Assembly: GCA_964471565.1 (NCBI GenBank) | Contig: CAYYFK010000003.1 | Location: forward strand, 1 to 54,738 | Length of the DNA: 54,738 bases | Source of the DNA: Candidatus Woesearchaeota archaeon | GTDB lineage: Archaea; Nanobdellota; Nanobdellia; SCGC-AAA011-G17; PNOQ01 | Direction of reading: 5' to 3' | Shown: one piece after another, positions 503 to 42,829 of the stretch | How positions within the stretch are numbered: the first letter of the stretch is position 1 | Layout: each line of letters begins with the position of its first letter | The notes under the pieces: model-generated | What the model saw: the letters and a program-made list of their open reading frames with translations, nothing else | What the model was told of the DNA's origin: nothing | The model's database searches: none | Translations under genes and position numbers: made by a program

Positions 503-697
503 ATGGCAGAAATAATACCGATTAAATCAAGAGTAAGGGTTAATAAAGATAAGGGTACTTTAGAAGATTTAACAAGAATGCTTTCTAGTAATAAGCATTG
601 GTTAGCCCAATATGATCTCTCTTTAGAAGATGTTAACAATCCTTTTGTAAAGGAAAGAGTAAAGAGTATTATTTATTCCGAGTATATTCTTGTTTGA
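503..697 (+). CDS. Small hypothetical protein (64 aa)
   Basis: ATG start with TTATAAA upstream; no recognised motif. Confidence 0.6.
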   Translation: MAEIIPIKSRVRVNKDKGTLEDLTRMLSSNKHWLAQYDLSLEDVNNPFVKERVKSIIYSEYILV

Positions 698-710
698 TTG
701 CAAATTTTTC

Positions 711-748
711 CTTGTCACCTTGCCATGCACGGACAGATTGTTTATAAA
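711..748 (+). promoter_or_regulatory. 21-nt conserved element (711-731), 9-nt spacer and TATA box (741-748) upstream of LAGLIDADG gene 1
   Basis: CTTGTCACCTTGCCATGCACG-N9-TTTATAAA; same arrangement on the minus strand at 42829-42792. Confidence 0.8.
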
Positions 749-769: not shown

Positions 770-1687
770 ATGGAATTTAATCTCTATGATATGTGCTCTG
801 ATGATAATGTGGTGCGTATTGCTATGGGTGATGAATTGAGATCTAAATTTAATTATTCTGTAAGTAGATTGAGGTTAAAAAGAAAGTTTATTTCGGATAG
901 TTTTGGTTTTGATTATAGTTCTGTTTGTAGATGGTTGAAAAACCATAAGTTTGTCCCGTTGAAATTGTTCAAGCTGTTGAAAGAAGTATATTTTCTTGAT
1001 TTCTCTAATCATATGAAATATTTTGTTGGTTGCTCAAATTCTAGGAAAATAAAAATACCTAAAAAATTAAATGAAAATTTAGCAAAAGTTATTGGTGCAC
1101 ATGTTGCGGATGGTTGCCTTAAGAAGAGAGTTTCACAAAGTAAGAATGGGAGATATATGAGATATGAATTGGTTTTGAGAGAGCAGTATTATTCCCATGT
1201 TGATTCATTTTGTAGATGGTTTAATGATTGTTTTGATTATGGAATAAGACCGATTGATAGGGGGAATCATTTTGAAGTGTATATTGGTAGTAGAGTTATA
1301 TTTGAATATTTTAATAAAATTTTAAAGATTCCTTATGGCCCGAAATCTGCAACCATAAGAGTTCCAGATTACATTAAGAATTCTAATTATAATATTAAAG
1401 TTGCCTTTTTAATGGGAATTTTTATGTTTGATGGATCTGTTGAGAGAAAAACAGGTTATGTAAGTTTGGTTTCGAGAAGTGAAAAATTAGTAAAAGGATT
1501 GTACAAATTATTGGAAGATATTGGCATCGTCCCAGATTACATTAACAAAAAGCCAGACAAATATAAGAGACATAGGTTGATAATAAGAAAGCAAGCTAAA
1601 TTGAAAGAATGCTTAACTTTATTTGAAAAAGATACTGAGAAATGGGAGAGATTGTATAAATTTTTAAAATTAAAACACAAGCTTTAA
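770..1687 (+). CDS. Free-standing double-motif LAGLIDADG endonuclease-family protein with N-terminal HTH-like region (305 aa)
   Basis: Motifs LAKVIGAHVADG and FLMGIFMFDG with both acidic residues present; ATG 770 lies 21 nt after the TATA box and is preferred over TTG 698. No intein splicing motifs seen. Confidence 0.85.
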   Translation: MEFNLYDMCSDDNVVRIAMGDELRSKFNYSVSRLRLKRKFISDSFGFDYSSVCRWLKNHKFVPLKLFKLLKEVYFLDFSNHMKYFVGCSNSRKIKIPKKLNENLAKVIGAHVADGCLKKRVSQSKNGRYMRYELVLREQYYSHVDSFCRWFNDCFDYGIRPIDRGNHFEVYIGSRVIFEYFNKILKIPYGPKSATIRVPDYIKNSNYNIKVAFLMGIFMFDGSVERKTGYVSLVSRSEKLVKGLYKLLEDIGIVPDYINKKPDKYKRHRLIIRKQAKLKECLTLFEKDTEKWERLYKFLKLKHKL

Positions 1688-1736
1688 AAAGAAGTTCTAA
1701 ACCAAATTTGAGTATAGTAAATTAGAATTAAAGAAA

Positions 1737-3933
1737 ATGGCTGAAAAATCGACAGAAATTATAGGGAAAATTATGACGCAGCCTGAGAAGATCAGAAATA
1801 TTGCCATCGCCGCACATTACGATTTCAGTTAAGGCTGTTCGTGTGCAGATCGACCATGGTAAGACCACATTTTCTGATAATCTCTTAGCTGGTGCTGGAA
1901 TGCTTTCTGAAGAGCTTGCTGGTGAACAAAGAGCTTTAGACTTTCATGATGATGAATCTGAGAGAGGAATTACTATAGACTCTGCTTCCGTTTCTATGCT
2001 TCACACTGTTGATGATACTGATCACTTAATTAATTTAATTGACACTCCAGGACATGTTGATTTTGGAGGAGATGTTACAAGAGCTATGAGGGCGGTTGAT
2101 GGTGCAGTTGTTTTATGTTGTGCTGTCGAAGGCATTATGCCACAAACTGAGACTGTTTTAAAACAAGCTTTGAGAGAAAGAGTTAAGCCGGTTTTATTTA
2201 TTAATAAAGTTGATAGGTTAATCAAAGAAGTTAAGTTAACTCCTGAAGCTATGCAGCAAAAGTTTGTTGATATCATTACCCATATTAATAAATATATTGA
2301 GCAAATTGCTCCTGAAGAATTTAAGGAAAAATGGAAAGTTAATATTCAGGATGGATCTGTTGCTTTTGGTTCAGCGTTCCATAACTGGGGGATTTCTTTG
2401 CCTTATATGCAAAAGAAAAATATTTCTTTCAAAGATATAATTGATGCTTATGAAAATGAAACTTACAAAGAATTAGCTAAAAAAGCGCCAATTCATGAAG
2501 TTGTTCTAGATATGACTATCAAACATCATCCAAATCCTTTAATTGCACAAAAATATAGAATTCCTAAAATTTGGCATGGGGATATTGAAAGTGTAGAAGG
2601 TAAGGCACTATCTAATTGTGATCCTAAGGGTGGAGTTGGTTTGATTGTTACTAAAATTGTTGTAGATAAACACGCTGGAGAGGTTGCAACTGGTCGTTTG
2701 TTTTCTGGAACTGTTAGACAAGGCGATGAAGTTTATCTTAATATGGCTAAGAAAAAAGTTAGATTACAACAAGTTTCTGTTTACAAAGGTTCACAAAGAA
2801 CTATGATGGAAGAAATCCCGTGCGGAAATATTGTTGGTTTGGTTGGTTTGAGAGATACTTTTGCGGGAGAAACTGTTTCTACAGAGCCCATGACCCCTTT
2901 TGAAGAAATTAAACATATTTTTGAGCCTGTTATTACTAAATCTATTGAAGCTTTGAAGGCTGCTGACTTGTCCAGATTAATTGAAGTTTTAAGACAAGTT
3001 GGAAAAGAAGACCCAAGTATTAAGGTTGAAATTAATGAAGAAACTGGAGAGAATTTAATCTCTGGAATGGGCGAATTACATTTAGAAATTATTGAGAATA
3101 GAATTAAAAATGAAAAAGGTTTGGAAGTTAAGACTTCTCCACCGATTGTTGTTTATAGGGAAACAGTTACTAAACAAGGTACTGAAGAAGAGGGTAAAAG
3201 TCCTAACAAACACAATAAATTCTATATAGTTGTAGAACCTTTGGAAGATAATATTTACGAGGCAATAAAATCTGGAGAATTATCTGAAGGAAGAGTAAAG
3301 AAAAAAGATAGAGTTGTTATAGATAAGTTAGTTGAATTAGGTTTAAATTCAAAAGATTCTCAAAGATATAGGTATTTTTACAAAGGAAATGCTCTTGTTG
3401 ATGATACAAGGGGAATTGTTCATATAGGAGAAGTTATTGAAATGATTATGGATGGTTTTCAACAAGTTATCAATGCAGGTCCATTGGCTAGAGAGCCTTG
3501 TGCTAAGATGAGGGTAAGAATTATGGATATGAAGCTTCATGAAGATGCAATTCATAGAGGTCCTGCTCAAGTTTACCCGGCAATTAGAGAATCTATTAAA
3601 GGCAGTATGGCAACTGCAGGTTCAAGTATCCTGGAACCTATTCAAGTTATGCAATTTGATAGTCCTTCTGAGTTTTTGGGAAATTTAAGTGGTATGATTC
3701 AGAACAAAAGAGGACAATTAATTAATGTTGATCAACAAGGCGAACATATTTCTGTTAAAGCTAAATTGCCTGTGGCTGAAATGTTTGGAATTGCTTCTGA
3801 ATTGAGATCGGTTACTTCTGGTCGTGGTAGTCAGTATTTAGTTGACCAAATGTTTGAAACTTTACCTACTAATTTGAAGGATGATGTTATCAAGAAAATT
3901 AGAAGTCGTAAAGGTTTAGGCGAGAATGAGTGA
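1737..3933 (+). CDS. fusA: Archaeal elongation factor EF-2, join(1737..1817,1849..3933), 721 aa after splicing
   Basis: Exon 1 MAEKSTEIIGKIMTQPEKIRNIAIAAH joins exon 2 IDHGKTTFSDN to restore G1; DTPGHVDF, NKVD and the diphthamide loop DAIHRGPAQV are present. Confidence 0.95.
1818..1848 (+). other. 31-nt BHB-type intron in EF-2 mRNA
   Basis: Central helix GCAC(1812-15)/GTGC(1843-46), 3-nt bulges ATT(1816-18) and AGA(1847-49), inner helix ACGA/TCGT. Cutting after the 2nd nt of each bulge gives exactly the junction that restores AAH-IDHGKT. Confidence 0.9.
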
Positions 3934-4564: not shown

Positions 4565-5848
4565 ATGGCTAAAGAAAAACCACACGTAAACATTGTATTT
4601 GTAGGTCATGTTGATCACGGTAAATCTACTGCTGTAGGTAGATTAATGTTTGATTCAGGAAACATTGATGAACAAGCAATGAGAAAATTAAAAGAAAAGG
4701 CTGAAGAGTTGGGAAAAGGTGGATTTGAATTCGCTTTTGTTATGGACAACTTAAAAGAAGAAAGAGAAAGAGGAGTTACAATCGATTTAAGTCATAAGAA
4801 ATTTAATACTGATAAATATGAATATACTGTTATTGATGCTCCTGGACACAGAGACTTTATTAAAAATATGATTACTGGAGCTAGTCAAGCAGATGTTGGT
4901 GTTTTGGTTGTTGCTGCAACAGATTCTGTAATGGCACAAACAAAAGAACACGTTTTCTTGTGTAAAACTCTTGGTGTTAATCAAATATCTGTTTTAGTTA
5001 ATAAAATGGATGCTGTTGATTATGCTGAAGACAAGTATAACAAAGTTAAAGAAGATGTTTCAAACTTGTTAAAAACTGTTGGATATAATCCGGATGAAGT
5101 TTCATTTATTGCAGGTAGTGCTTTAGAAGGAGATAATATTGCTAAGAAATCTGATAAGATGGCTTGGTACACAGGTCCAACTGTTTTGGAACAGTTAAAT
5201 TTATTTAAAGAACCTGAAAAACCAACTGGTTTGCCTTTGAGATTACCAATCCAAGATGTTTATAACATCGCAGGTATTGGTGTTGTTCCTGTTGGAAGAA
5301 TTGAAACTGGAACAATGAAAGTTGGGGACAAAGTTACTGTTGTTCCTGGTAGAGAAGGTAAAGGAGTTTCAGGTGAGTGTAAGACTATAGAGATGCACCA
5401 TGAACAGGTCCAAGAAGCAATTCCTGGAGATAATGTTGGTTTCTCAGTAAGAGGAATTGGTAAAAAGGATATTGCTAGAGGAGATGTTTTAGGTAGATCT
5501 GATAGTGTACCTACATTGGCTAAGGAATTTACAGCACAAATCGTTGTATTAAACCATCCTTCAGTATTAACTGTAGGATATACGCCTGTTTTCCACATAC
5601 ATACAGCACAAGTAGCATGCCAAATTACTGAATTGGTTAAGAAAATCAATGCTGCTACAGGTGAAGTTATTGAGGAAAATCCAGATATGCTAAAGAATGG
5701 AGATGCTGCAATTGTTAAGATTGTGCCAACTAAACCTTTAGTTATTGAAAAGCAAGGCGAAATACCACAAATGTCAAGATTTGCTATTAGAGATGCAGGT
5801 CAGACAGTTGCTGCAGGTATGTGTATCGACTTAGTTAAGAAGGAGTAA
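4565..5848 (+). CDS. tuf: Elongation factor EF-1alpha
   Basis: [44 protein letters not shown]. Confidence 0.98.
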
Positions 5849-8341: not shown

Positions 8342-8481
8342 GCCGGGATCGCATAATCTGGTATTGCACAGAACCTTAAAATGTAATAAATTTAAGGTGT
8401 GTAAGCCTGGAATTTAATTTCAGAAACATGCCAGTTAGCCTGACCCTTCGGGGTGTCTGGGTTCAAATCCCAGTCCCGGCG
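8342..8481 (+). tRNA. tRNA-Ser(GGA) with two introns: 8372-8404 (position 29/30, 33 nt) and 8413-8436 (37/38, 24 nt)
   Basis: Acceptor GCCGGGA/TCCCGGC, G73, long variable arm, TTCAAAT T-loop. Removing both BHB introns gives anticodon arm CAGGC-CTGGAAA-GCCTG; the body is near-identical to tRNA-Ser(GCT) at 34884. Confidence 0.9.
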
Positions 8482-41793: not shown

Positions 41794-41890
41794 GCGAGCG
41801 TAGTTTAGTGGTAGAATTCGACGTTGCCATTGATAAATTTATTTATTAAGCAAAAACGTCGTGACCCGGGTTCGACCCCCGGCGCTCGCA
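41794..41890 (+). tRNA. tRNA-Gly(GCC) with a 26-nt intron at 37/38 (41830-41855)
   Basis: GCGAGCG/CGCTCGC, anticodon arm CGACG-TTGCCA|A-CGTCG, BHB central helix TTGC/GCAA. Confidence 0.93.
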
Positions 41891-42769
41891 TATATTTTTT
41901 ATTAATTTGTTTGTTGGTATTCTTCCATGTTTAGACCATATCTTGAATTTTAGATTATTTTTAAAATTACTAAATCCTATCTTATTATAATATTCTACTG
42001 CTTCTTTTCCAAAGAGATACAAACAATAATTATCATTGTTTTTTCCTATCCTTGGGTTATAACCCAAATGTTCCAGTGCTTTTTTTAGTGAATCTATCAA
42101 ACTTATTTGACTATTAAAAAATATTATTTGTAAATTTGTTTTGTGGTGCCTGTATAACCCCCCATCAGTATCAAAGAGTCCTCTAATGCAGGGAATTAAA
42201 AGAGTACTTTCGTGTAATATCATCTCAGGTATTGATGAATTTTTCTTCTTCCCGAGTTTTAGATTAAATTGTTTTTGTATGTAATTCACTATGTCTCTAG
42301 AATATACCCTACATTGCACACCATTTGACTTTTTGAAATAATATATGCTTGAAGTTTTGTCAAATAAAAACTTAATTAGGTTTGGTATGTATTTGGTTAT
42401 ATATCTTAGGTCTATTTTGCCACAAGTGATTATCAATCCATTTTGATTTATATGTCCATCACCTAAATATATGCCAATTAGTTCAGCAAGCTCTGGAGAA
42501 ATAAACTCTGGAATTTTTATATTTGAATTATTTATCGGTCTTTTCTCAGATATATGTTCATCAAAAGCGGTTGGATTAACATTTATTAAATTACATAATT
42601 CTTGAAATATTGATTCTCGCATACTACAATTCTCTTTGTATAAATGATTTACCATGCTTTTTGAGATATTCAATAATCCTGCTAATTCAATCCATTTTAG
42701 TCCTGTTTTTGTTCTTATTACTTCTAAAAATTCTTTCTGTTTTTCTTTTTTGAAAATTATGTATTCCAT
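41846..42769 (-). CDS. Free-standing double-motif LAGLIDADG endonuclease-family protein with N-terminal HTH (307 aa)
   Basis: LAELIGIYLGDG and IRGLFDTDG; ATG 42769 lies 22 nt after the TATA box; the 3' end runs antisense through tRNA-Gly. Confidence 0.85.
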   Translation of the reverse strand: MEYIIFKKEKQKEFLEVIRTKTGLKWIELAGLLNISKSMVNHLYKENCSMRESIFQELCNLINVNPTAFDEHISEKRPINNSNIKIPEFISPELAELIGIYLGDGHINQNGLIITCGKIDLRYITKYIPNLIKFLFDKTSSIYYFKKSNGVQCRVYSRDIVNYIQKQFNLKLGKKKNSSIPEMILHESTLLIPCIRGLFDTDGGLYRHHKTNLQIIFFNSQISLIDSLKKALEHLGYNPRIGKNNDNYCLYLFGKEAVEYYNKIGFSNFKNNLKFKIWSKHGRIPTNKLIKNICERRGSNPGHDVFA

Positions 42770-42791: not shown

Positions 42792-42829
42792 TTTATAAAT
42801 TCTGTTTGCGTGCGTGGCAAGGTGACAAG
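42792..42829 (-). promoter_or_regulatory. 21-nt conserved element (42829-42809), 9-nt spacer and TATA box upstream of LAGLIDADG gene 2
   Basis: Minus strand CTTGTCACCTTGCCACGCACG-N9-TTTATAAA; 20/21 identical to 711-731. Confidence 0.8.

What the first reader, a model, noticed from the sequence alone, without database searches (positions are those of the whole stretch)
770..1848. Both free-standing LAGLIDADG genes abut micro-intron-containing genes: possible collaborative homing
Seen in sequence: endonuclease 1 ends 49 nt before the EF-2 start, about 130 nt from the intron; endonuclease 2 (41846-42769) ends inside the tRNA-Gly intron. Both retain the acidic residue of each LAGLIDADG motif. Established: free-standing homing endonucleases in phages can cut intron-less alleles and spread together with a neighbouring endonuclease-less intron. 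Inference: 26-31-nt BHB introns, too small to encode mobility, could be spread or maintained by an adjacent endonuclease while protecting the target site. EF-2 also lacks a clear TTTATA box of its own and may be co-transcribed from the endonuclease promoter.
Basis: inference. Interest (0 to 1): 0.78.

Follow-up and report, generated by a model that had tools for sequence, protein, structure and literature searches.

The report
Endonuclease gene paired with EF-2 micro-intron
In this tiny archaeon a free-standing DNA-cutting (LAGLIDADG) gene sits just upstream of the essential EF-2 gene, and across relatives that gene almost always co-occurs with a 30-nt intron in EF-2's most conserved codons, which points to an archaeal form of "collaborative homing" in which the intron shields the endonuclease's presumed target.

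Summary
ORF 770-1687 is a two-motif LAGLIDADG nuclease. It ends 49 nt before EF-2, whose P-loop codons are split by a 31-nt bulge-helix-bulge intron (1818-1848). ORF 41846-42769(-) is a 24%-identical paralogue whose stop codon lies inside the 26-nt intron of tRNA-Gly(GCC).

All 16 distinct lineages of this endonuclease family sit directly upstream of EF-2. Fourteen of them carry micro-introns in the P-loop, against 6 of 68 endonuclease-less species (Fisher p=1e-9, not phylogeny-corrected). The introns occupy at least four positions inside about 15 bp. The two intron-less carriers share an unusual Ser-AGT codon next to it.

The closest relative (EF-2 96% identical) lacks both gene and intron. 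One intron-only genome keeps a remnant of the endonuclease gene. Both catalytic Asp residues are invariant, and dN/dS is 0.12-0.33.

The same codons host LAGLIDADG inteins in other relatives.

The tRNA-Gly half is weaker. Linkage to tRNA-Gly(GCC) is conserved (7 of 8 lineages), but the intron is present in only 3 of 5 close ones. The co-transcription claim is not supported: a conserved TTTAAAAA box precedes EF-2. Cleavage and splicing remain untested.

The parts
503..697 (+). Small conserved ORF (64 aa). It marks the left flank of the endonuclease-gene insertion.
   Evidence: It is 79% identical to the ORF that directly precedes EF-2 in L010, the closest relative, which lacks the endonuclease gene.
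711..731 (+). Tandem CTTGYCA-C-CTTGCCA motif just upstream of the ORF1 TATA box. Candidate operator.
   Evidence: It occurs exactly twice in the window, once before each LAGLIDADG gene (0 expected by chance). In 0.9 Mb of related loci it is otherwise found only upstream of family-1 and family-2 genes, plus one stray hit.
741..748 (+). TATA box (TTTATAAA) of ORF1, 22 nt before the ATG.
   Evidence: Read from the sequence. Conserved in L004.
770..1687 (+). Free-standing single-chain LAGLIDADG endonuclease gene (family 1): N-terminal HTH-like domain of about 90 aa plus two LAGLIDADG domains.
   Evidence: Pfam LAGLIDADG_3, E=4e-8. PDB sequence hits to intein homing endonucleases. AlphaFold model pLDDT 90.5, with Foldseek top hits PI-PkoII, TliVMA and I-DmoI. 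D114, D221 and K192 invariant. dN/dS 0.12-0.33.
1683..1690 (+). TATA-like box (TTTAAAAA) for EF-2. It overlaps the ORF1 stop codon and lies about 47 nt before the EF-2 ATG.
   Evidence: Conserved as TTTAAAAAGA in L001, L004 and L007. Its function is inferred.
1737..1817 (+). EF-2 exon 1 (27 codons, ending ...IAIAAH).
   Evidence: Translation and tblastn against relatives.
1818..1848 (+). 31-nt bulge-helix-bulge micro-intron in the EF-2 P-loop codons.
   Evidence: Its removal restores AH|IDHGKTT. The fold shows a 4-bp GCAC:GUGC helix between bulges, an ACGA:UCGU inner helix and a weak outer helix. Homologous position in L001/L097. Absent in L010-L013.
1849..3933 (+). EF-2 exon 2.
   Evidence: It is 96% identical in amino acids to L010 EF-2.
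1809..1863 (+). Inferred endonuclease target: about 24 bp of P-loop coding DNA (codons 25-32), split here by the intron.
   Evidence: Inference. All interruptions in relatives (introns at 0, +2, +6 and +14/15 nt after the His codon) and the Ser-AGT substitution at codon 25 of intron-less carriers fall in this span.
41794..41890 (+). tRNA-Gly(GCC) with a canonical 26-nt BHB intron at 41830-41855.
   Evidence: Rfam 52.5 bits. ARAGORN with introns allowed gives Gly(gcc) i(37,26). TTGC:GCAA central helix read from the sequence.
41846..42769 (-). Second free-standing LAGLIDADG endonuclease gene (family 2). It converges on tRNA-Gly and overlaps it by 45 nt, and its stop codon lies inside the tRNA intron.
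   Evidence: It is 24% identical to ORF1. Homologues overlap tRNA-Gly(GCC) in the same way in L090, L091, L116 and L118.
42792..42829 (-). ORF2 promoter region: TATA box (42792-42799) and the same tandem CTTGTCACCTTGCCA motif (42809-42829).

Best explanation
ORF1 is a free-standing LAGLIDADG homing endonuclease kept next to its own target, the P-loop coding DNA of EF-2 about 130 bp downstream.

Proposed mechanism:
1. The enzyme recognises about 22 bp around CAT-ATY-GAY-CAY-GGN-AAR in uninterrupted EF-2 alleles and cuts there.
2. The break is repaired from an endonuclease-bearing allele. That copies the interruption at the break and, when the conversion tract reaches 130 bp upstream, the endonuclease gene as well.
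3. The carrier allele is immune because its recognition site is physically split by a 30-35-nt BHB micro-intron.
4. The tRNA-splicing endonuclease removes the intron from the mRNA, so EF-2 stays functional.
5. In two lineages a Ser-AGT substitution appears to provide the immunity instead.
6. The intron has no mobility function of its own. It hitchhikes on the breaks and can outlive the endonuclease gene.

ORF2 is a paralogue locked in the same way to tRNA-Gly(GCC).

Shown here: gene identity, fold and conserved active-site residues; strict linkage to EF-2; the BHB structure and the frame restoration; the statistical association; presence/absence between relatives; a decayed endonuclease remnant.

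Inferred, not shown: DNA cleavage, the identity of the target, RNA splicing, gene conversion.
For: 1. Every family-1 member found lies directly upstream of EF-2: 16 distinct lineages from protein, genome and metagenome searches.
2. Fourteen of the 16 carry one or two micro-introns in the P-loop, against 6 of 68 endonuclease-less species. Odds ratio 72, Fisher p=1.2e-9. In the unbiased species sample alone p=0.03.
3. The introns sit at 0, +2, +6 and +14/15 nt after the His codon. Close sisters L001 and L007 (EF-2 95%, endonuclease 77% identical) differ in position. This is expected if selection is for disrupting a site rather than for one inherited insertion.
4. Both intron-less carriers (L004 type and L107 type; L107 EF-2 is about 65% identical to the window's, L004 EF-2 92%) have ATT-AGT (Ile-Ser) two codons before the His. 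None of 19 endonuclease-less alleles in the same A-I-x-A-H context has Ser there.
5. L010 (EF-2 96% aa) keeps the same flanking small ORF but lacks both the endonuclease gene and the intron.
6. L043 has an intron and no endonuclease gene, yet retains about 35 codons of a family-1 C-terminus directly upstream of EF-2.
7. D114, D221 and K192 are invariant across 15 lineages and in family 2. dN/dS is 0.12-0.33.
8. The model (pLDDT 90.5) best matches PI-PkoII, the TliVMA intein endonuclease and I-DmoI.
9. The same codons host LAGLIDADG inteins (GK|C...N|TT) in 8 of 77 species, so this DNA is a proven kind of homing site.
10. The introns fold as hBHBh' with inner-helix sequences that differ yet still pair.
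11. Collaborative and trans homing by a free-standing endonuclease next to an ORF-less intron is established in phages (PMC2790892).
Against: - No cleavage, splicing or conversion data exist.
- Six or seven species have the intron without the endonuclease gene, and two lineages have the gene without an intron.
- Endonuclease identity tracks EF-2 identity (Spearman 0.59) and the gene is under sustained purifying selection. This fits vertical inheritance of a useful gene as well as it fits a mobile one.
- No co-conversion tract is visible between the window and L010. The first 90 nt of EF-2 are equally divergent in control pairs.
- The association test is not corrected for phylogeny.
- L018 and L109 carry a +6 intron together with an intein, so interruptions can stack for reasons not yet understood.
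- For ORF2, 2 of 5 close homologues overlap an intron-less tRNA-Gly, and canonical tRNA introns are common anyway.
Confidence: 0.6

Rival explanations
1. Domesticated LAGLIDADG protein. The HTH-LAGLIDADG protein is a host DNA-binding factor (regulator or other), inherited vertically upstream of EF-2. The intron association reflects shared ancestry in a clade where the P-loop happens to be an intron hotspot.
For: - dN/dS is 0.12-0.33 at saturated dS.
- Endonuclease and EF-2 identities correlate (rho 0.59).
- The position is fixed in all 16 lineages.
- It has an extra HTH domain, and in long forms a C-terminal winged-helix-like domain.
- A shared promoter motif suggests regulated expression.
- Introns also occur without the gene.
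Against: - The catalytic Asp pair and the Lys are invariant, unlike WhiA.
- The WhiA Pfam domain scores below its cutoff (14 bits against 23).
- The gene is patchy among close relatives: absent from L010, L012 and L013 and from 68 of 71 sampled species. That is hard to reconcile with a needed regulator of an essential gene.
- The introns are at different positions in sister lineages, so shared ancestry does not explain the association.
- ORF2 is convergent with its neighbour, a poor layout for a regulator.
Confidence: 0.15
2. The endonuclease is active, but the micro-introns answer to a different enemy. They are immunity or footprints against the EF-2 intein's own homing endonuclease (or arise for other reasons). 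The free-standing gene targets another nearby sequence.
For: - Inteins with LAGLIDADG domains insert at GK|T in 8 species.
- Introns at +14/15 coincide with the intein site (L039, L043, L055, L102).
- Most intron-bearing species in the unbiased sample lack the free-standing gene.
Against: - The 0 and +2 introns and the Ser-AGT codon lie 13-21 nt left of the intein site, outside a 22-bp footprint centred there.
- The 0 position occurs only in endonuclease carriers. The +2 position occurs in four carriers and in one endonuclease-less genome (L055).
- The 14/16 against 6/68 enrichment would remain unexplained.
- L018 and L109 have a +6 intron together with an intein.
Confidence: 0.12
3. Maturase-like helper. 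The LAGLIDADG protein binds the pre-mRNA and helps the tRNA-splicing endonuclease process a relaxed BHB in an mRNA, as some LAGLIDADG proteins assist group I intron splicing.
For: - It explains co-occurrence of gene and intron.
- The window's BHB has a weak outer helix.
- The bifunctional endonuclease and splicing factor I-AniI (1p8k) appears among the structural matches.
Against: - Introns of the same design are present, and presumably spliced, in 6-7 genomes without the gene.
- Many +6 introns are perfect hBHBh' motifs that need no help (L025, L019, L018).
- Two carriers have no intron.
- The tRNA-Gly intron is canonical.
- An invariant catalytic Asp pair is not needed for maturase function.
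Confidence: 0.06

Closest known systems
Collaborative / trans homing in phages: free-standing F-CphI with the ORF-less psbA group I intron in cyanophage S-PM2, and T4 MobE with the defunct nrdB intron (PMC2790892, PMC6083498)
   Same: A free-standing endonuclease gene lies next to a conserved gene that carries an intron with no endonuclease of its own. The intron interrupts or sits near the presumed target. The two co-occur and can be co-converted because they lie within recombination distance (here 130 bp).
   Different: - The host is a cellular DPANN archaeon, not a phage.
- The endonuclease is LAGLIDADG, not HNH or Endo VII-like.
- The intron is a 30-nt protein-spliced BHB intron, not a self-splicing group I ribozyme.
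- The intron position varies over about 15 bp between lineages, and some alleles carry two introns.
- Cleavage has not been shown here.
Archaeal rRNA BHB introns that encode LAGLIDADG homing endonucleases (I-DmoI, I-PorI, I-ApeI, I-Tsp061I)
   Same: Same enzyme fold: I-DmoI TM 0.72-0.75, and I-Tsp061I is among the hits. Same intron type (BHB, host-spliced). The target lies in a highly conserved sequence.
   Different: In those systems the ORF sits inside a 0.6-kb intron in rRNA. Here the ORF is outside the gene with its own promoter, the intron is too small to encode anything, and the host gene codes for a protein.
Intein-encoded LAGLIDADG endonucleases (PI-PkoII, PI-PfuI, TliVMA/PhoVMA inteins)
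   Same: These are the best sequence and structure matches. Inteins with such domains occupy the same EF-2 P-loop in related genomes.
   Different: ORF1 has no Hint splicing blocks. It is a separate gene with its own start codon, stop codon and TATA box, plus an N-terminal HTH-like domain.
cbf5 pre-mRNA BHB intron of Crenarchaeota (PMC2738675)
   Same: [quoted passage not shown]
   Different: Different gene and phylum. No endonuclease gene is reported as associated with cbf5. The EF-2 introns are shorter and occupy several positions.
WhiA (bacterial LAGLIDADG-derived regulator)
   Same: Combines LAGLIDADG and HTH domains. A weak Pfam hit (E=0.05).
   Different: WhiA lacks the catalytic acidic residues and has a C-terminal HTH. 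Here both Asp are invariant and the HTH-like domain is N-terminal.

Membership tests
LAGLIDADG homing endonuclease (single-chain, two-motif) | Two LAGLIDADG helices, each ending in a catalytic Asp/Glu | tested here: met
   LAKVIGAHVADG and VAFLMGIFMFDG in ORF1; LIGIYLGDG and IRGLFDTDG in ORF2. The Asp residues are invariant in 15 family-1 lineages and in family 2.
LAGLIDADG homing endonuclease (single-chain, two-motif) | Pseudo-dimeric alpha-beta-beta-alpha-beta-beta-alpha fold | tested here: met
   AlphaFold model pLDDT 90.5, pTM 0.90. Foldseek matches PI-PkoII E=2.5e-11 and I-DmoI with TM (target) 0.72-0.75. Pfam LAGLIDADG_3 scores above its cutoff.
LAGLIDADG homing endonuclease (single-chain, two-motif) | Site-specific double-strand cleavage of a target of about 20 bp, leaving 4-nt 3' overhangs | not testable with these tools
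   Needs purified protein and DNA substrates.
LAGLIDADG homing endonuclease (single-chain, two-motif) | Presence/absence polymorphism at a fixed site among related genomes | tested here: met
   Present in the window and the L004 type but absent in L010, L012 and L013 of the same clade. Present in only 3 of 71 sampled species, always at the same site.
Collaborative homing (free-standing endonuclease plus ORF-less intron) | Endonuclease gene free-standing and within recombination distance of an intron that has no ORF | tested here: met
   The stop codon is 130 nt from a 31-nt intron. The gene has its own TATA box and ATG.
Collaborative homing (free-standing endonuclease plus ORF-less intron) | Endonuclease gene and intron co-occur across genomes more often than chance | tested here: met
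   14/16 against 6/68, Fisher p=1.2e-9. Species sample only: 2/3 against 6/68, p=0.03. Not corrected for phylogeny.
Collaborative homing (free-standing endonuclease plus ORF-less intron) | Endonuclease cuts the intron-less allele at or near the intron insertion site; the intron-plus allele is resistant | not testable with these tools
   Only indirect support: interruptions and the Ser-AGT variant cluster within about 22 bp.
Collaborative homing (free-standing endonuclease plus ORF-less intron) | Co-conversion of flanking exon sequence | tested here: inconclusive
   The window and L010 are 77% identical over the first 90 nt of EF-2, but control pairs show the same dip (0.74-0.78).
Archaeal bulge-helix-bulge intron | Two 3-nt bulges separated by a 4-bp helix, with the splice sites in the bulges | tested here: met
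   Window: GCAC-AU|U ... GUGC-AG|A with an ACGA:UCGU inner helix and a weak outer helix (relaxed form). L025, L019 and L018 are perfect hBHBh'. The tRNA-Gly intron has TTGC-CA|T ... GCAA-AA|A.
Archaeal bulge-helix-bulge intron | Removal restores a conserved product | tested here: met
   It restores AHIDHGKTT in all 19 EF-2 introns examined and a standard tRNA-Gly anticodon arm.
Archaeal bulge-helix-bulge intron | Excision by the tRNA-splicing endonuclease and ligation in vivo | not testable with these tools
   Needs RNA data or an in vitro assay.
WhiA-like regulator | Degenerate LAGLIDADG domain without catalytic acidic residues, plus a C-terminal HTH | tested here: not met
   Catalytic Asp residues invariant. 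The HTH-like domain is N-terminal. Pfam LAGLIDADG_WhiA scores 14.1 bits against a cutoff of 23.2.
Intein-encoded endonuclease | Endonuclease domain embedded between Hint splicing blocks, in frame with a host protein | tested here: not met
   It is a separate ORF with its own ATG, stop and TATA box. There is no Hint match. True EF-2 inteins in relatives look different.

The most novel reading that the evidence does not exclude
The EF-2 P-loop of Woesearchaeota may be the site of a three-way arms race.

- Short BHB micro-introns would form a related, horizontally spreading family. They share a design: an in-frame stop at intron codon 3 and an inner UAAG...CUU hairpin.
- They would act as immunity inserts against LAGLIDADG endonucleases, both the free-standing upstream one and the intein-borne one.
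- Alleles with two introns (L055, L102) would be doubly immune.
- The +2 and +6 positions would mark the 4-nt staggered cut.

If true, this would be the first mechanism explaining how and why host-spliced introns enter archaeal protein-coding genes, and the first collaborative homing system in a cellular archaeon.
Probability: 0.35. Interest if true: 0.9.

Novelty: new variant of a known kind. Interest (0 to 1): 0.8.

Why it matters
- Host-spliced (BHB) introns in archaeal protein-coding genes were, in the literature I could search, known essentially from one gene, cbf5. How they arise has been open.
- Here an essential, universally conserved gene carries them at several positions inside 15 bp. 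The strongest predictor of their presence is a neighbouring endonuclease gene with an intact active site.
- That gives a concrete, testable reason for intron gain: protection of a homing-endonuclease target, and hitchhiking on its breaks.
- It would extend collaborative homing from phage group I introns to cellular archaea and to protein-spliced introns.
- It also shows that gene callers truncate EF-2 in these genomes (693-710 aa called instead of about 721). This affects a standard phylogenetic marker.
- The endonucleases would be new meganuclease specificities aimed at a GTPase P-loop sequence.

Tried and rejected
- **Insertions in EF-2 loci.** Long 'matches' in the EF-2 locus table looked like insertions. 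They were second tblastn hits to EF-1alpha downstream.
- **Co-conversion tract.** I looked for one between the window and L010. There is no signal beyond the general variability of the N-terminus.
- **Origin from the EF-2 intein.** I tested whether family 1 derives specifically from the EF-2 intein endonuclease. HMM scores to the inteins (21-40 bits) are no better than to family 2 (40 bits), so there is no special relationship.
- **Horizontal transfer.** The window and L004 are 52% identical in the endonuclease but 92% in EF-2. The flanking small ORF, however, is only 29% identical between them, so fast divergence explains this equally well.
- **Covariance model of the introns.** The MAFFT alignment of the 30-nt introns gave no RNAalifold consensus. 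I used per-sequence folds instead.
- **Viral carriage.** Only distant LAGLIDADG genes (32% identity or less) turned up in viral contigs.
- **Promoter motif as a copy of the homing site** (as in I-TevI autorepression). The only shared element is a TTGCCA hexamer, which is not significant.
- **Programmed frameshift or translational bypass in place of an intron.** Rejected because 19 independent insertions all fold as BHB, with the junctions in the bulges.


Full report
**1. What is in the window**

The window is AT-rich DNA of a DPANN archaeon. The nearest public genomes are Candidatus Woesearchaeota MAGs.

ORF1 (770-1687, +) encodes 305 aa. It has an N-terminal HTH-like region of about 90 aa and two LAGLIDADG domains.
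- Pfam LAGLIDADG_3 matches at E=4e-8.
- The best solved-structure sequence matches are archaeal intein homing endonucleases.
- An AlphaFold model (pLDDT 90.5, pTM 0.90) matches PI-PkoII, the TliVMA intein endonuclease, PI-PfuI and the BHB-intron-encoded I-DmoI, the last with target-normalised TM 0.72-0.75.

ORF1 has its own TATA box (TTTATAAA, 741-748) 22 nt before the ATG.

EF-2 starts 49 nt after the ORF1 stop codon, at 1737. After 27 codons (…IRNIAIAAH) the frame runs into a stop. The rest of EF-2 (IDHGKTTFSDN…) continues in the +1 frame from 1849.

Removing 1818-1848 (31 nt) restores the universal P-loop AHIDHGKTT. The RNA folds with a 3-nt bulge (AU|U), a 4-bp helix GCAC:GUGC, an inner helix ACGA:UCGU and a second bulge holding the 3' junction. 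The outer exon-exon helix is weak, so this is a relaxed BHB.

ORF2 (42769-41846, -) is a paralogue, 24% identical to ORF1. It converges on tRNA-Gly(GCC) (41794-41890, +). That tRNA has a canonical 26-nt BHB intron at 41830-41855, with TTGC-CA|T…GCAA-AA|A. The last ~16 codons of ORF2 are antisense to the 3' half of the tRNA, and its stop codon (41846-41848) lies in the intron.

**2. Linkage of family 1 to EF-2**

A protein search found only seven relatives of ORF1 (41-56% identical). Every contig carrying one has the gene directly upstream of EF-2.

A metagenome scan with a family profile added more. All hits of 35% identity or better lie upstream of EF-2, except one whose contig ends first.

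After collapsing duplicates there are 16 distinct lineages, and all 16 are at this position.

**3. The co-occurrence test**

I scanned one genome per species for EF-2 itself, without regard to the endonuclease. This gave 80 Woesearchaeota/Nanoarchaeota loci. I classified the P-loop in each and searched all ORFs with a family-1 HMM.

| Group | Total | Micro-intron(s) | No micro-intron |
|---|---|---|---|
| Species with at least 1 kb upstream and no endonuclease gene | 68 | 6 (one also has an intein) | 55 uninterrupted, 7 intein only |
| Endonuclease-bearing lineages | 16 | 14 (L109 also has a mini-intein) | 2 |

Fisher's exact test gives an odds ratio of 72 and p=1.2e-9. Within the unbiased species sample alone the counts are 2/3 against 6/68, p=0.03. 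These p-values are not corrected for phylogeny.

The EF-2 tree helps on that point. It shows introns, inteins and endonuclease genes scattered across the tree, and nearly every intron-bearing lineage has an uninterrupted close sister.

**4. Positions of the interruptions**

Counting nucleotides after the His codon:

| Position | Loci |
|---|---|
| 0 | window, L001 |
| +2 | L008, L110, L104, L102, L055 |
| +6 | L007, L009, L019, L025, L034, L038, L047, L098, L099, L100, L018, L109 |
| +14/15 | L039, L043, and the second introns of L055 and L102 |

Sources.

L001 and L007 are close sisters (EF-2 95%, endonuclease 77% identical), yet they carry unrelated introns at 0 and +6.

Nineteen introns were folded. 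Most show the hBHBh' pattern, and L025, L019 and L018 are textbook cases. The inner-helix sequences differ between introns but always pair.

The two endonuclease-bearing lineages without an intron are the L004 type and the L107 type. L107 EF-2 is about 65% identical to the window's and L004 EF-2 is 92% identical, so the two are only distantly related. Both have ATT-AGT (Ile-Ser) two codons before the His.

Among 19 endonuclease-less alleles in the same A-I-x-A-H context, x is Ala 13 times and Cys 6 times, never Ser. AGY-Ser does occur at that codon in the different C-T-S-A-H context, so this is suggestive only.

Together, the Ser codon (-6) and the rightmost introns (+15) span about 22 bp, the size of a LAGLIDADG site. 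The +2 and +6 positions are 4 nt apart, like the staggered cuts of these enzymes. Both points are inference.

**5. Gain and loss**

L010 is the closest relative (EF-2 96% aa, 90% nt). It has the same small upstream ORF (79% identical), followed directly by a TATA box and an uninterrupted EF-2. Both the roughly 1-kb endonuclease cassette and the intron are missing. L012 and L013 lack both as well.

L043 has a +15 intron and no endonuclease gene. It nevertheless retains about 35 codons (…NKLERWKILKSEKKGLNKVWVINNKLPIIRRE*) that are about 75% identical to the C-terminus of the long-form family-1 protein of L099. These lie immediately upstream of EF-2 and are cut off by a stop. At least one 'intron-only' allele is therefore a former carrier.

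**6. Is the protein an active nuclease?**

D114, D221 and K192, together with the flanking Gly residues, are invariant in 15 family-1 lineages and in family 2. Pairwise dN/dS is 0.12-0.33, with dS saturated.

This argues against a WhiA-like degenerate domain, and the WhiA Pfam model scores below its cutoff.

It cuts the other way too. Long-term purifying selection, and a correlation between endonuclease and EF-2 divergence (rho 0.59), are what a domesticated gene would also show. I found no co-conversion tract.

**7. The wider context**

In eight species the same P-loop carries an intein, inserted at GK|C…N|TT and usually with a LAGLIDADG domain. L018 and L109 have both a +6 intron and an intein.

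This stretch of DNA is thus a documented kind of homing site. The +14/15 introns may relate to the intein endonuclease rather than to family 1.

**8. Family 2 and tRNA-Gly**

| Loci (protein, identity to ORF2) | Arrangement with tRNA-Gly(GCC) | Intron |
|---|---|---|
| L091/92 (P0010, 55%) | convergent overlap of the 3' half | 20 nt |
| L118/119 (P0013, 53%) | convergent overlap of the 3' half | 24 nt |
| L090 (P0011, 57%) | convergent overlap of the 3' half | none |
| L116/117 (P0012, 53%) | convergent overlap of the 3' half | none |
| L120 (P0017, 40%) | tRNA 79 nt upstream, same strand | none |
| L095/96 (P0021, 38%) | apparent tRNA-Gly(GCC) upstream (read by eye from the sequence; not called by Rfam or ARAGORN) | non-canonical |
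| L093 (P0016, 40%) | no tRNA detected | - |

Sources.

Linkage to this one tRNA gene is clearly non-random, holding in 7 of 8 lineages. The intron association is not established. I could not sample tRNA-Gly loci independently of the endonuclease.

**9. Promoters**

In endonuclease-bearing loci EF-2 is preceded by a conserved TTTAAAAAGA that overlaps the endonuclease stop codon, about 47 nt before the ATG (1683-1690). The claim that EF-2 lacks its own box is therefore not supported, although read-through cannot be excluded.

Both LAGLIDADG genes share a tandem CTTGYCA-N-CTTGYCA element just upstream of their TATA boxes (711-731 and 42809-42829). It occurs nowhere else in the window. In 0.9 Mb of related loci it is almost exclusive to family-1 and family-2 promoters.

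**10. Comparison with known systems and novelty**

The arrangement works like phage collaborative or trans homing (PMC2790892; PMC6083498). The enzyme resembles archaeal intron- and intein-encoded LAGLIDADG nucleases.

It differs in four ways. The host is a cellular archaeon, the gene codes for a protein, the intron is host-spliced and about 30 nt long, and the intron position varies.

Full-text searches found no report of BHB introns in EF-2 or of such a pairing. Reviews and papers up to 2025 cite only cbf5 for protein-gene BHB introns.

I rate it a new variant of a known kind, with about 0.6 confidence in the mechanism. Biochemical cleavage and RNA evidence are the decisive missing pieces.

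Noticed in passing
L018, L023, L035, L041, L052, L074, L080, L089 (around 1900-3500 in each); L109 1100-1690: EF-2 inteins inserted at HGK|C...HN|TT of the P-loop in related species. Most are about 485 aa with a LAGLIDADG domain. L109, and probably L035 and L041, are mini-inteins. L018 and L109 carry a +6 micro-intron as well.
   Followed up: partly
window 711-731 (+) and 42809-42829 (-); L004 4941-4955, L090 2941-2956, L091 2941-2955, L118 1231-1245: A tandem CTTGYCA(N1-2)CTTGYCA element about 12 nt upstream of the TATA box of both LAGLIDADG genes and of their homologues. It is otherwise absent from the window and nearly absent from 0.9 Mb of related loci. It may be an autoregulatory operator or a site for a shared regulator.
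   Followed up: partly
L055 3425-3510; L102 1860-1960: Two separate micro-introns only 12 nt apart in the same EF-2 P-loop: one after CAY-AT and one inside the Lys codon.
   Followed up: partly
EF-2 introns in L007, L009, L019, L025, L038, L099, L100, L008, L110, L104: The micro-introns share a design beyond the BHB itself: an in-frame stop (mostly TAA) at about the third intron codon, and an inner hairpin that starts UAAG and ends CUU. This hints that they form one related family, and that unspliced mRNA is terminated early.
   Followed up: partly
L043 3260-3367: A remnant of about 35 codons of a long-form family-1 endonuclease C-terminus lies directly upstream of an intron-bearing EF-2 that has no intact endonuclease gene.
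   Followed up: yes
window 8342-8481 (+): A 140-nt tRNA gene (Rfam 35.8 bits) that ARAGORN did not call. It must hold about 65 nt of intron sequence, possibly more than one intron.
   Followed up: no
window 41846-41890; L090 3873-3921; L091 3886-3939; L116 2368-2421; L118 2175-2225: The last ~16 codons of family-2 endonuclease genes are encoded antisense to the 3' half of tRNA-Gly(GCC). This overlap is conserved across genomes. In intron-bearing alleles the stop codon falls in the intron.
   Followed up: partly
L095 2563-2800 and 3990-4300: A cluster of tRNA genes with long or non-canonical introns around a family-2 homologue, including an apparent tRNA-Gly(GCC) with an insertion in the D-arm region that Rfam did not call. 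An archaeal SRP RNA lies nearby (5098-5392).
   Followed up: no
L077 378-2765: A ribosomal protein S12 gene carrying an intein with a LAGLIDADG domain.
   Followed up: no
P0005, P0006; L025, L047, L098-L104, L109 (last ~90 codons of the endonuclease gene): Long-form family-1 proteins (about 395 aa) have an extra C-terminal winged-helix-like domain and end within 10 nt of the EF-2 start, with the EF-2 Shine-Dalgarno sequence (AGGAGG) inside their last codons. The window's short form lacks this domain.
   Followed up: no
L001, L003, L007, L008 gene calls; window 1801-3933: Automatic gene calls truncate EF-2 at the intron: 685-710 aa are called instead of about 721, and the 27-30-codon first exon is called separately or not at all. 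This matters for a widely used phylogenetic marker.
   Followed up: yes
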